Part shown: piece after piece, positions 62,028-62,161 of the stretch
Layout: every line of letters begins with the position of its first letter
Numbering within the stretch: position 1 is the first letter of the stretch
DNA from: a virus
Lineage: Duplodnaviria > Heunggongvirae > Uroviricota > Caudoviricetes
DNA length: 64,000 nucleotides
IMG/VR virus record: IMGVR_UViG_3300028805_000051
Coordinates: 107,394-171,393 of that record
Reading direction: 5' to 3' (one strand)
Program-made: the position numbers and the translations under genes
Notes under the pieces: model-generated
Told to the model about the DNA's origin: nothing
Databases searched by the model: none
Seen by the model: only the letters and a program-made list of their open reading frames with translations

Positions 62028-62161
62028 CAACATCTAATTTAAAAACAAAATGTCGCGGGTTCGAATCCCGTCTCCGCCTCAAGGTTATCAAAATTATTAA
62101 AATAAGGCGGAGTAGCTCAGTAGGAAGAGCATTTGTCGATAACCTTAGCTTAAAGATGTTG
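62028..62161 (+). ncRNA. candidate circularly permuted or split tRNA. The 3-prime half (62045-62079) lies upstream of the 5-prime half (62106-62136), and 8-nt complementary flanks sit at 62028-62035 and 62154-62161.
   Basis: The upstream piece is ACAAA atgtc gcggg ttcgaat cccgt CTCCGCC t. The downstream piece is GGCGGAG ta gctc agtaggaa gagc a TTTGT. The 7-bp acceptor and 5-bp anticodon stem are exactly complementary between the two pieces. The flank caacatct pairs with agatgttg. Confidence 0.4.

What the first reader, a model, noticed from the sequence alone, without database searches (positions are those of the whole stretch)
62028..62161. Apparent circularly permuted or split tRNA: the 3-prime half lies upstream of the 5-prime half, with complementary flanks
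At 62045-62079 there is a 3-prime anticodon-stem strand ACAAA, a variable loop, a T-arm and the acceptor 3-prime strand CTCCGCC. Twenty-six nt downstream, at 62106-62136, there is the exactly complementary acceptor 5-prime strand GGCGGAG, a D-arm and the anticodon 5-prime stem TTTGT. Together this is 12 of 12 complementary stem positions, which is unlikely by chance. An 8-nt sequence before the 3-prime half (caacatct, 62028) is complementary to one after the 5-prime half (agatgttg, 62154), as in split or permuted tRNA precursors that form a processing helix. No ordinary partner halves occur within 150 nt on either side, and the next tRNA (Asn, 62217) is complete.
Basis: seen in the sequence. 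Interest (0 to 1): 0.8.

Follow-up and report, generated by a model that had tools for sequence, protein, structure and literature searches.

The report
Phage Y-RNA-like tRNA mimic
The "back-to-front tRNA" is real and conserved, but it is most likely a non-coding RNA that imitates tRNA shape (a Y-RNA-like partner of a phage Ro60-type protein), a known kind of RNA seen here in a new, larger form in a giant gut phage, and not a gene for a working tRNA.

Summary
At 62045-62079 and 62106-62136 the 3' and 5' halves of a perfect class-I cloverleaf lie in swapped order, enclosed by the 8-bp helix CAACATCT/AGATGTTG. About 20 related metagenomic phage loci keep this arrangement at the same place, between a DUF7873 gene and tRNA-Asn. 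On a hand-built 14-sequence alignment, 25 of 32 base pairs change on both sides and 97.5% of cells stay paired.

The interpretation as a permuted or split tRNA gene is not favoured. In relatives the "anticodon-loop" side is 9-29 nt long and not loop-like. There is no bulge-helix-bulge motif and no group I intron signature.

The order T arm, closed acceptor stem, D arm inside a long stem is that of bacterial/phage YrlA Y RNAs. Rfam's YrlA model is the only non-tRNA family that matches it end to end (35.5 bits, below the 69-bit cutoff). The window encodes a Ro60-fold protein at 43444-44757. In four of six related lineages a Ro60-family gene, canonical TROVE in one, lies within 2.5 kb upstream on the same strand.

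Verdict: a new, enlarged variant (about 300 nt) of a Y-RNA-like tRNA mimic in a Lak-like megaphage. Ro60 binding and processing are inferred, not shown.

The parts
61914..62006 (+). Conserved 5' domain. Predicted stem-loop closed by GCT..AGCTT (61923-61932) pairing with AAGCT..AGC (61997-62006). It contains a variable hairpin (CCCTCAttGAGGG, 61940-61952) and the near-invariant block GATACTAGATATTCAGCATTAGCATTGTGTCGAAAGCTT.
   Evidence: Sequence conservation across all relatives. The closing helix is predicted by RNAalifold on alignment A5, but its pairs are invariant, so there is no covariation support.
61992..61999 (+). GTCGAAAG, a literal match to the GNCGAAN0-1G motif proposed as the Ro60/Rsr contact in YrlA RNAs.
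   Evidence: motif definition from PMC4201824. Not strictly conserved in relatives: GTCGAAAAG, GTCGAGAG, GTCAAGAG, GTCTAGAG.
62025..62035 (+). 5' strand of the long-range closing helix: TAC plus CAACATCT.
   Evidence: Pairs with 62154-62161 and 62165-62167. Compensatory variants are CAACAC/GTGTTG (L234), CAGTAT/ATACTG (L235/L244), CAACGT/ACGTTG (L241), CAGTAGAT/ATCTATTG (L245) and CAATAGAT/GTCTATTG (L247), with TAC/GTA versus ACC/GGT versus GCC/GGC for the outer 3 bp.
62036..62044 (+). Internal-loop strand AATTTAAAA. It looks like an anticodon loop (UUUAAAA) only in this sequence and its close relatives.
   Evidence: Length 9-29 nt and unrelated sequences in relatives.
62045..62054 (+). Anticodon-like stem 3' strand ACAAA (62045-62049) and 5-nt variable loop ATGTC ending in C48.
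   Evidence: All 5 pairs of this stem change on both sides and 100% of cells are paired. C48 or U48 covaries with G15 or A15, the Levitt pair.
62055..62071 (+). T arm GCGGG-TTCGAAT-CCCGT.
62072..62079 (+). Acceptor 3' strand CTCCGCC plus discriminator-position T. No CCA is encoded.
   Evidence: 7 of 7 Watson-Crick pairs with 62106-62112. Five of seven pairs change on both sides in relatives.
62080..62105 (+). 26-nt A/U-rich linker that closes the acceptor stem, or is cut out of it.
   Evidence: The linker is 17-272 nt in relatives. The long versions are separately structured inserts.
62106..62136 (+). Acceptor 5' strand GGCGGAG, U8 A9, D arm GCTC-AGTAGGAA-GAGC, A26, and anticodon-like stem 5' strand TTTGT.
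62137..62153 (+). Internal-loop strand CGATAACCTTAGCTTAA, containing the recurring TTAGCTTAA motif.
62154..62167 (+). 3' strand of the closing helix: AGATGTTG, an AAC bulge, then GTA.
62182..62216 (+). 3' terminal hairpin: GAGGCTGCAC (62182-62191) pairs with GTGCAGTCTC (62207-62216) around the conserved loop CTAGGGCATTTGA. It ends exactly at the 5' end of tRNA-Asn.
   Evidence: A 9-bp stem with compensatory changes in A5.
62217..62290 (+). tRNA-Asn(GUU), the conserved downstream neighbour. RNase P cleavage at its 5' end would define the 3' end of the element (inferred).
   Evidence: same neighbour in relatives.
61084..61884 (+). DUF7873 gene, the conserved upstream neighbour of the element.
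   Evidence: Pfam PF25283, E 8e-31. It is adjacent to the element in every relative. Its predicted fold has no PDB match.
43444..44757 (+). Ro60-like protein (DUF2828 + DUF7788), same strand, 17.3 kb upstream.
   Evidence: Pfam; phrog_850 'RNA-binding protein'. AlphaFold model pLDDT 85.6. Top Foldseek PDB hits are the TROVE domain 9kop, Ro60 1yvp/1yvr/2i91, phage phiLo Ro60 9l5y and Rsr 2nvo, all at probability 1.0.

Best explanation
The element, about 61914-62216 on the + strand, is a roughly 300-nt non-coding RNA of the Y-RNA-like (YrlA) kind.

Shown:
- A long stem built from its two ends carries a tRNA-shaped module wired in the order anticodon-like stem (3' strand), variable loop, T arm, 7-bp acceptor stem closed by a linker, D arm, anticodon-like stem (5' strand).
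- Read linearly, this looks like a tRNA whose 3' half precedes its 5' half.
- The fold is under selection, including the tertiary 15:48 pair.
- It belongs to a gene neighbourhood that in relatives contains a Ro60-family gene immediately upstream.
- This phage encodes a Ro60-fold protein.

Inferred:
- The RNA is cut out of a polycistronic tRNA-block transcript, with its 3' end made by RNase P at tRNA-Asn.
- It folds into an L-shaped tRNA mimic and acts as a partner or regulator of the phage Ro60-like protein. By analogy with Y RNAs, it may tether the protein to host RNA-processing enzymes or gate it.
- It has a perfect 7-bp acceptor stem, an unpaired base at the discriminator position and a freely variable linker. 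It is therefore probably also cut by RNase P and 3'-processed with CCA added, as reported for Mycobacterium smegmatis YrlA. That would leave a two-piece RNA held together by the acceptor, anticodon-like and closing helices.
- It does not decode codons.
For: 1. Architecture and covariation. On the 14-sequence core alignment, 97.5% of cells are paired, against 75.1 +/- 1.3% in shuffles and 31-42% when partners are slid. 25 of 32 pairs change on both sides. The covariation score is 0.649 against 0.202, reached by 0 of 500 shuffles. An independent MAFFT/RNAalifold run recovers the closing helix, T arm, acceptor stem, D arm and 3' hairpin. G15:C48 switches to A15:U48 in L149, L235/L244 and L241. 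Chen et al. describe the same covariation for YrlA.

2. Rfam. RF02553 YrlA aligns end to end (model 1-114) at 62029-62163, 35.5 bits, E 3.4e-6. The relative L234 scores 38.5 bits. In 26 kb holding about 25 tRNAs, including tandem pairs, this is the only YrlA match.

3. Ro60 link. Window ORF 43444-44757 has the Ro60/TROVE+vWA fold. A Ro60-family gene lies within 2.5 kb upstream on the same strand in L234 (DUF2828 type, 72.7% identical to the window protein), L241 (canonical PF05731 TROVE + vWA_Ro60), L245/L246 and L247/L248. This matches the published criterion of lying within about 4 kb on the same strand.

4. Precedent. YrlA RNAs are known in 22 phages. M. smegmatis YrlA, which has a 7-bp acceptor stem, is cut by RNase P and receives CCA. 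Phage phiLo Ro60 binds phage Y-like RNAs.

5. The literal motif GTCGAAAG lies at 61992-61999.

6. Permuted T/acceptor/D modules sit right next to DUF2828 Ro60-like genes in many other viral contigs.
Against: - The YrlA score is half of Rfam's gathering score (35.5 against 69). The model's middle helix is not matched.
- The GNCGAA motif is not conserved across the family. It is absent from L241, the one relative next to a canonical TROVE gene.
- The window's Ro60-like gene is flanked by four small Y-like modules with a different shared signature (helix + ACAGCAA ... helix + TGA). This element lacks that signature.
- In the window the Ro60-like gene is 17.3 kb away. In two relative lineages none was found within 10 kb.
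- The element is about three times longer than described Y RNAs and has a full 5-bp anticodon-like stem.
- No expression, processing or binding data exist.
Confidence: 0.65

Rival explanations
1. A tRNA-shaped RNA that does not work with Ro60. It could be a decoy or sponge for host tRNA-targeting nucleases or tRNA-modifying enzymes, a partner of the always-adjacent DUF7873 protein, or an RNase P/RNase Z processing signal that punctuates the phage's long tRNA-block transcript.
For: - The one invariant neighbour is DUF7873, not Ro60.
- Two lineages have no Ro60-family gene within 10 kb.
- The element lacks the ACAGCAA signature shared by the Y-like modules that directly flank Ro60-like genes.
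- It sits in a dense tRNA/tmRNA block.
- The 7-bp acceptor stem and highly variable linker suit RNase P/Z recognition.
Against: - Synteny with Ro60-family genes of two different types in four of six lineages is hard to explain otherwise.
- A mere processing signal would not need about 190 nt of conserved extra domains or the covarying closing helix.
- DUF7873 has no recognisable RNA-binding fold.
Confidence: 0.22
2. A genuine circularly permuted or split tRNA gene. The flank helix would guide cleavage at the anticodon-loop side. A ligase such as RtcB would join the ends into a circle, and RNase P/Z would remove the linker, yielding a decoding tRNA with anticodon UAA here and UCA or UUA (stop-codon suppressors) in relatives.
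For: - The joined halves give a perfect cloverleaf.
- In the window and its nearer relatives the 7 nt before the 3' half read UUUAAAA, UUUCAAA or UUUUAAA, with U at position 33 and A at 37-38 and central triplets UAA, UCA or UUA.
- The phage lineage probably recodes a stop codon, since there is a CUA suppressor tRNA at 30117-30188.
Against: - In more distant members the same strand is GCAAATA (L234), TACCATT (L241), ATAAGAA (L235) or 23-29 nt long (L247, L245). The opposite strand is 11-24 nt. The loop-like look is therefore lineage-specific A/T-rich sequence.
- L131 and L136 have A at position 33.
- There is no 3-4-3 bulge-helix-bulge geometry.
- There is no G for a group I 3' splice site, and no Rfam intron or ribozyme match at E<=10.
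- No splicing endonuclease or RtcB was seen among the ORFs scanned.
- From established knowledge, bacteria have no bulge-helix-bulge endonuclease.
- A class-I body with U73 does not fit Leu identity (established knowledge).
Confidence: 0.05
3. A decaying remnant of a tandem tRNA duplication, or a chance juxtaposition of two tRNA fragments.
For: Tandem duplication followed by loss of the outer halves is the accepted route to permuted tRNA genes (established knowledge). The window is full of tRNA genes.
Against: - The structure is kept with compensatory changes in 25 of 32 pairs across 14 distinct sequences.
- The flanks are more conserved than the tRNA-like body.
- Chance complementarity of acceptor plus anticodon-like stem occurs in 0.016% of shuffles.
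Confidence: 0.02

Closest known systems
YrlA (Y RNA-like) RNAs of bacteria and phages, Rfam RF02553; especially Mycobacterium smegmatis YrlA (Chen et al. 2014, PMC4201824)
   Same: - The order is stem, V, T arm, acceptor-like stem-loop, D arm, stem.
- tRNA tertiary-pair nucleotides are kept, including the 15:48 covariation.
- Relatives encode it near a Ro60 ortholog on the same strand.
[quoted passage not shown]
   Different: - It scores only 35.5 bits against a cutoff of 69.
- It has a complete 5-bp anticodon-like stem plus a 4-5-nt variable loop where phage YrlA-like RNAs have a V hairpin.
- It has a 93-nt 5' domain and a 35-nt 3' hairpin, about 300 nt in all against 80-130 nt.
- The acceptor linker ranges from 17 to 272 nt.
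- The GNCGAA motif is not conserved.
- The associated Ro60-like protein is a divergent DUF2828/DUF7788 form.
- The host is a Lak-like megaphage.
Circularly permuted tRNA genes of Cyanidioschyzon merolae and other algae, and split tRNAs of Nanoarchaeum equitans (own knowledge: Soma et al. 2007; Randau et al. 2005)
   Same: The 3' half lies upstream of the 5' half, separated by a short linker. Sequences flanking the halves pair with each other.
   Different: - Those precursors form a bulge-helix-bulge motif that is cut by the splicing endonuclease and then ligated. They keep an intact anticodon loop and occur in eukaryotes and archaea.
- Here the junction region is an irregular internal loop of variable length, with no bulge-helix-bulge motif and no conserved anticodon loop.
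- Here the host is bacterial.
Two-piece (circularly permuted) tmRNA, Rfam RF04321 (own knowledge: Keiler et al. 2000)
   Same: The gene order is permuted: T arm and acceptor 3' strand come before the acceptor 5' strand. The intervening segment is removed to give a two-piece RNA held together by base pairing.
   Different: - There is no tag reading frame and no pseudoknots.
- The D arm and anticodon-like stem are complete.
- The match is only 17.8 bits against a cutoff of 47.
- The window has a separate candidate tmRNA at 50691-51292.
Yrl1/Yrl2 of Thermus phage phiLo with phage Ro60 (PMC12135203)
   Same: Phage-encoded Y-like RNAs found near a phage Ro60 gene, with a CGAA motif. The phiLo Ro60 structure (9kop, 9l5y) is the top structural match of the window's Ro60-like protein.
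   Different: As described in the passages read, the phiLo RNAs are stem-bulge-stem Y RNAs. No tRNA-like module is mentioned there. Binding is shown for them and is untested here.

Membership tests
YrlA / Y RNA-like (RF02553) | tRNA-like domain in the order (V), T arm, acceptor-like stem-loop, D arm, enclosed by a stem formed from the RNA's 5' and 3' parts | tested here: met
   Read from the sequence. Covariation in all six helices. Independent RNAalifold run.
YrlA / Y RNA-like (RF02553) | Conserved tRNA tertiary nucleotides, including covariation of the 15:48 Levitt pair | tested here: met
   U8, A14, G18G19, the TTCRA T loop and C48 are present. G15:C48 is seen in the window, L002 and L234, and A15:U48 in L149, L244 and L241. 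The criterion comes from PMC4201824.
YrlA / Y RNA-like (RF02553) | Score at or above Rfam's curated gathering threshold (69 bits) | tested here: not met
   35.5 bits for the window and 38.5 bits for L234. There was no hit in the gathering-threshold scan.
YrlA / Y RNA-like (RF02553) | GNCGAAN0-1G motif near the 5' end (proposed Ro60/Rsr contact) | tested here: inconclusive
   The window has GTCGAAAG at 61992-61999 in a conserved block. Relatives have GTCGAAAAG, GTCGAGAG, GTCAAGAG or GTCTAGAG.
YrlA / Y RNA-like (RF02553) | Encoded within about 4 kb of a Ro60 ortholog, on the same strand | tested here: inconclusive
   Not met in the window itself: the Ro60-like gene is 17.3 kb upstream on the same strand. 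Met in relatives L234, L241, L245/L246 and L247/L248. Not met within 10 kb in L243 and L244.
YrlA / Y RNA-like (RF02553) | Bound by Ro60/Rsr in vivo or in vitro | not testable with these tools
   Needs immunoprecipitation or EMSA.
Circularly permuted / split tRNA gene | The 3' half lies upstream of the 5' half, the acceptor strands are complementary, and the joined halves give a canonical cloverleaf | tested here: met
Circularly permuted / split tRNA gene | Bulge-helix-bulge (3-nt bulge, 4-bp helix, 3-nt bulge) at the junction of the precursor termini | tested here: not met
   Between the anticodon-like stem and the closing helix, the strands are 9 and 17 nt in the window and 9-29 and 11-24 nt in relatives. 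No conserved 4-bp helix is present.
Circularly permuted / split tRNA gene | A conserved 7-nt anticodon loop (U33, purine 37) can be reconstituted after joining | tested here: not met
   This is possible only in the window and its near relatives. It is absent in L234, L241, L245 and L247.
Circularly permuted / split tRNA gene | A joined mature tRNA or a circular intermediate is detectable | not testable with these tools
   Needs RNA-seq or circular RT-PCR.
Group I intron in permuted intron-exon arrangement | Terminal G immediately before the 3' exon, and a P1-P9 core recognisable in the flanks | tested here: not met
   No G lies within 20 nt upstream of the 3' half in any member. There is no Intron_gpI match at E<=10.
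Two-piece tmRNA (RF04321) | Covariance-model score at or above 47 bits, and a tag-peptide reading frame | tested here: not met
   17.8 bits. ARAGORN reports no tmRNA there.

The most novel reading that the evidence does not exclude
After RNase P and 3' processing with CCA addition, the RNA becomes a two-piece, possibly aminoacylatable tRNA-like particle. Its anticodon side is replaced by a roughly 200-nt structured domain. Alternatively, and more radically, a phage or host ligase circularises it into a true permuted tRNA whose anticodon (UAA, UCA or UUA) differs between related megaphages and contributes to stop-codon recoding. Either would be the first natural permuted or two-piece tRNA system in a bacterial virus.
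Probability: 0.07. Interest if true: 0.85.

Novelty: new variant of a known kind. Interest (0 to 1): 0.5.

Why it matters
Y RNAs that mimic tRNA are known from bacteria and a few phages, but what the tRNA-shaped part does is still open. This finding adds several things.
- A conserved, covariation-supported family occurs in Lak-like megaphages of gut-type metagenomes.
- The mimic is the most tRNA-like yet: a full anticodon-like stem and a 7-bp acceptor stem.
- It is fused to extra structured domains.
- It is linked to a divergent Ro60-like protein (DUF2828/DUF7788) and an uncharacterised partner gene (DUF7873).
- It sits inside a large tRNA/tmRNA block.

That makes it a useful natural variant series for asking which tRNA enzymes Y RNAs engage during infection.

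It also carries a practical warning. Permuted-tRNA finders will flag such elements, and ARAGORN already mislabels a neighbouring Y-like module as tRNA-His.

Tried and rejected
- **Conventional partner halves.** I searched the window for a second copy of either half with up to 3 mismatches and found none.
- **Group I permuted intron-exon idea.** Rejected: there is no terminal G and no Rfam intron match at E<=10.
- **Self-cleaving ribozymes in the flanks.** No Rfam match in the window element.
- **Exact-pattern scans of IMG/VR.** The two halves gave 0 hits. A 16-mer was too unspecific, giving 119+ mostly chance loci with only one real contig. A two-block flank pattern worked in the metagenome collection.
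- **Lak-A1 genome.** It has the DUF7873 homolog but no such element downstream.
- **Ro60-like gene inside the held parts of the first relatives.** tblastn found none, because the loci were too short.
- **ACAGCAA-type Y signature in the element.** Absent. The scan output was very noisy.
- **Rfam gathering scan of 14 loci around DUF2828 genes.** No YrlA reached threshold.
- **DUF7873.** PHROGs gave no family. The AlphaFold model (pLDDT 83) has no significant PDB fold match.
- **Window Ro60-like protein by sequence against the PDB.** Nothing found. Only the fold search showed the relationship.
- **Promoter and terminator scan.** Nothing above chance.
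Full report
**1. The observation**

The sequence is exactly as described.
- A 3' tRNA half lies at 62045-62079: ACAAA, ATGTC, GCGGG-TTCGAAT-CCCGT, CTCCGCC, T.
- A 26-nt A/U-rich linker follows.
- A 5' half lies at 62106-62136: GGCGGAG, TA, GCTC-AGTAGGAA-GAGC, A, TTTGT.
- caacatct (62028-62035) is complementary to agatgttg (62154-62161).

ARAGORN and Rfam's tRNA model do not call it. If the 5' half is placed in front of TTTAAAA plus the 3' half, ARAGORN draws a perfect 74-nt cloverleaf, nominally tRNA-Leu(UAA). 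Neither half has another copy in the 64 kb. In 100,000 shuffles of the downstream 440 nt, an exact acceptor complement occurred in 1.08%. Acceptor plus anticodon-stem complement at the right spacing occurred in 0.016%.

**2. Context**

- The window is a tRNA-rich stretch with 27 ARAGORN calls.
- It comes from a phage distantly related to the Prevotella Lak megaphages. The only DNA similarity to named phages is 66.7% over the gene just upstream.
- That gene, 61084-61884, is a DUF7873 family member.
- tRNA-Asn starts at 62217.

**3. Relatives**

I collected about 20 loci that carry the same element directly downstream of a DUF7873 gene. In all but L241/L242 it is directly upstream of tRNA-Asn. 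The sources were:
- a protein-guided search of IMG/VR;
- one pattern scan of the metagenome collection;
- look-ups of DUF7873 homologs at 58-80% identity.

All have the swapped order and an exactly complementary 7-bp acceptor stem, but with different sequences.

| Feature | Variants seen |
|---|---|
| Acceptor 5' strand | GGCGGAG, GGGGAAT, GGGGCGT, GGAGCGT, GGCGGGC, GGCGGTG, GGTGCGT, AGGGAAT |
| Anticodon-like stem | TTTGT/ACAAA, TACGG/CCGTA, TTAGG/CCTAA, TGTGA/TCACA, TGTGG/CCACA, ATTGT/ACAGT, TTTGA/TCAAA, TAAGG/CCTTA, AATAG/CTATT, CATGA/TCATG |
| Closing helix | CAACATCT/AGATGTTG, CAACAC/GTGTTG, CAGTAT/ATACTG, CAACGT/ACGTTG, CAGTAGAT/ATCTATTG, CAATAGAT/GTCTATTG |

The closing helix is extended by 3 covarying pairs beyond an AAC bulge.

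I built a fixed-length core alignment of 14 distinct sequences. Because I built it from the model, it leans towards the model. On it:
- 97.5% of cells pair, against 75.1 +/- 1.3% in shuffles and 31-42% when partners are slid.
- 25 of 32 pairs change on both sides.
- The covariation score is 0.649 against 0.202, reached by 0 of 500 shuffles.

An independent MAFFT + RNAalifold run on full-length sequences recovers the same helices plus a covarying 9-bp 3' hairpin. The Levitt pair covaries: G15:C48 against A15:U48. The L-shaped tRNA fold is therefore under selection. The feature is real.

**4. Is it a permuted or split tRNA gene?**

The deciding region is the junction where the anticodon loop would have to be made.
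- In the window the 7 nt before ACAAA read UUUAAAA. In near relatives they read UUUCAAA or UUUUAAA. This looks like an anticodon loop and even suggests suppressor anticodons UCA and UUA.
- In more distant members the same strand is 11 nt ending GCAAATA (L234), 12 nt ending ATAAGAA (L235), 10 nt ending TACCATT (L241), 23 nt (L247) or 29 nt (L245).
- L131 and L136 have A at position 33.
- The opposite strand is 11-24 nt.

There is no conserved loop and no 3-4-3 bulge-helix-bulge geometry. No G lies within 20 nt of the 3' half to serve as a group I 3' splice site. Permissive Rfam scans of the window element and of L002 find no intron or ribozyme family. The ORFs scanned include no splicing endonuclease or RtcB. 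I rate a decoding permuted tRNA at about 5%.

**5. What it resembles**

The permissive Rfam scan gave one non-tRNA family that aligns end to end: RF02553 YrlA (Y RNA-like) at 62029-62163, 35.5 bits, E 3.4e-6, against a gathering score of 69. L234 gives 38.5 bits. In 26 kb with about 25 tRNAs, including tandem pairs, it is the only YrlA match. It is therefore not the tRNA-dimer artefact that the YrlA authors warn about.

Chen et al. 2014 (PMC4201824) define YrlA RNAs by four features:
- a stem formed by the two ends of the RNA;
- a GNCGAAN0-1G motif near the 5' end;
- a tRNA-like module in the order V, T arm, acceptor-like stem-loop, D arm, with 15:48 covariation;
- a location within about 4 kb of a Ro60 ortholog on the same strand.

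They found YrlA RNAs in 254 bacteria and 22 phages. They also showed that M. smegmatis YrlA, which has a 7-bp acceptor stem, is cut by RNase P and receives CCA in vivo.

**6. The Ro60 link**

- Window ORF 43444-44757 (437 aa, same strand) hits DUF2828 + DUF7788 and phrog_850 'RNA-binding protein'.
- Its AlphaFold model (pLDDT 85.6) has as top PDB matches the TROVE domain and Ro60 of Thermus phage phiLo, Xenopus and human Ro60, and Deinococcus Rsr, all at probability 1.0.
- It lies 17.3 kb upstream of the element.
- In relatives the intervening tRNA block is absent. L234 has the orthologous gene (72.7% identity) ending 0.9 kb before DUF7873.
- L241 has a canonical PF05731 TROVE + vWA_Ro60 protein 1.6 kb before it.
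- L245/L246 and L247/L248 have DUF7788-type proteins immediately before it.
- Two lineages, L243 and L244, show none within 10 kb.

The likely ancestral unit is therefore Ro60-family gene, then DUF7873, then this RNA.

**7. Reasons for caution**

- The covariance-model score is below threshold.
- GTCGAAAG (61992-61999) fits the motif, but relatives have GTCGAAAAG, GTCGAGAG, GTCAAGAG or GTCTAGAG.
- The window's Ro60-like gene is flanked by four small Y-like modules with their own signature: a 6-7-bp helix, then ACAGCAA, then the helix partner followed by TGA.
- The same signature surrounds permuted T/acceptor/D modules next to DUF2828 genes in many other viral contigs. The 62-kb element lacks it.
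- The element is about 300 nt, with a 93-nt 5' domain and a 3' hairpin.

It is therefore a distinct, larger family. I file it as working like a YrlA-type tRNA mimic and as a new variant, not as a certified RF02553 member.

**8. Mechanism**

Shown:
- the fold;
- its conservation;
- the gene neighbourhood;
- a Ro60-fold protein in the same phage.

Inferred:
- The RNA is co-transcribed with neighbouring genes. No promoter or terminator stands out.
- Its 3' end is made by RNase P at tRNA-Asn.
- Because the acceptor stem is a perfect 7 bp, the base after it is unpaired, and the linker varies freely from 17 to 272 nt, RNase P and 3' processing with CCA addition probably open the acceptor end. This would give a two-piece RNA, as in M. 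smegmatis.
- The RNA then serves as a partner, tether or gate for the Ro60-like protein, or as a mimic engaging tRNA enzymes.

**9. Verdict**

- The permuted-tRNA interpretation is only partly right.
- Best explanation: a Y-RNA-like tRNA mimic, confidence 0.65.
- Main rival: a Ro60-independent tRNA mimic or processing element, confidence 0.22.
- Novelty: a new variant of a known kind.
- Interest: 0.5.

Noticed in passing
window 43183-43446 and 44767-44945: Four small Y-RNA-like modules flank the Ro60-like gene. They share a signature: a 6-7-bp helix, (A/G)T-AC(A/T)GCAA, a loop, the helix partner, then TGA/TGG. One (about 43381-43446) overlaps the gene's start codon, which suggests possible autoregulation. 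One (about 44767-44857) holds a T-arm-like hairpin ACGGTTCAAATCCGT.
   Followed up: partly
window 44779-44848: ARAGORN's 70-nt 'tRNA-His' here coincides with one of those Y-like modules. Rfam's tRNA model does not call it, so it is probably a mislabel.
   Followed up: partly
L156, L167, L170, L176, L177, L178, L179, L185, L187, L195, L245 (near positions listed): Many IMG/VR and ENA phage contigs have permuted T-arm / 7-bp acceptor stem-loop / D-arm modules with the ACAGCAA signature right next to DUF2828-type Ro60-like genes. None reaches Rfam's YrlA threshold. This may be an uncurated phage Y-RNA family.
   Followed up: partly
L002 3988-4227; L128, L132, L138, L140, L149, L243, L244 (acceptor linker): In many relatives the acceptor linker holds a 77-272-nt insert that is itself structured, with covarying helices and a roughly 90-nt near-invariant core (GACGTAGCAGGTTAACTGGGAATGCAGTGCGTA...GAAGATAAGTCCAT). 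No Rfam family matches. Its nature is unknown.
   Followed up: partly
window 61923-61932, 61980-61989, 61999-62009, 62145-62153: The element carries a recurring AGC(T/A)T(T/C)AGC-type motif (agctttagctt, cattagcatt, gctttagcttt, ttagcttaa). Two copies may pair to close the 5' domain. A role as a protein-binding repeat is not excluded.
   Followed up: partly
window 62374-62494 (also L131, L132, L138, L149, L234, L235, L238): A 121-nt 'tRNA' sits just after tRNA-Asn, with a roughly 45-nt insertion carrying the conserved CCTAGTT...ATTCTAGTT. Its anticodon-region sequence differs among relatives. It may be another tRNA-like RNA and not an ordinary class II tRNA.
   Followed up: no
window 42124-42170, 42182-42321, 42340-42880: Three features lie side by side: a truncated tRNA-like piece (acceptor, D and T arms, no anticodon arm), a tRNA with a roughly 67-nt insert in the anticodon region, and a roughly 540-nt ORF-free stretch that looks like a large structured RNA with no Rfam match.
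   Followed up: no
window 50691-51292: A full-length match to the tmRNA model lies just under threshold (45.5 bits against 47, E 3e-15). It is probably a phage-encoded tmRNA.
   Followed up: no
window 30117-30188 (- strand): A tRNA with anticodon CUA, which ARAGORN calls 'Pyl', is an amber suppressor. This suggests TAG recoding, as reported for Lak phages.
   Followed up: no
window 40273-40359, 41332-41418, 49531-49619, 59664-59749: Several tRNAs for amino acids that normally have short variable loops (Asp, Lys, Met, Cys) are 85-89 nt long. This implies short insertions of unknown kind.
   Followed up: no
L247 811-960; L245 1254-1320: L247 has a Hatchet ribozyme (90.9 bits). L245 has a near-threshold HDV-like ribozyme (37.2 bits against 44). 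Both lie in relatives' contigs near the Ro60-like locus.
   Followed up: no
L241 1027-1944 and 4419-4724: In the relative with a canonical TROVE Ro60, the neighbourhood also holds an Apyc1/metallo-beta-lactamase-fold gene and a weak PolyA_pol (CCA-adding-like) hit. These hint at an RNA-processing gene cluster.
   Followed up: no
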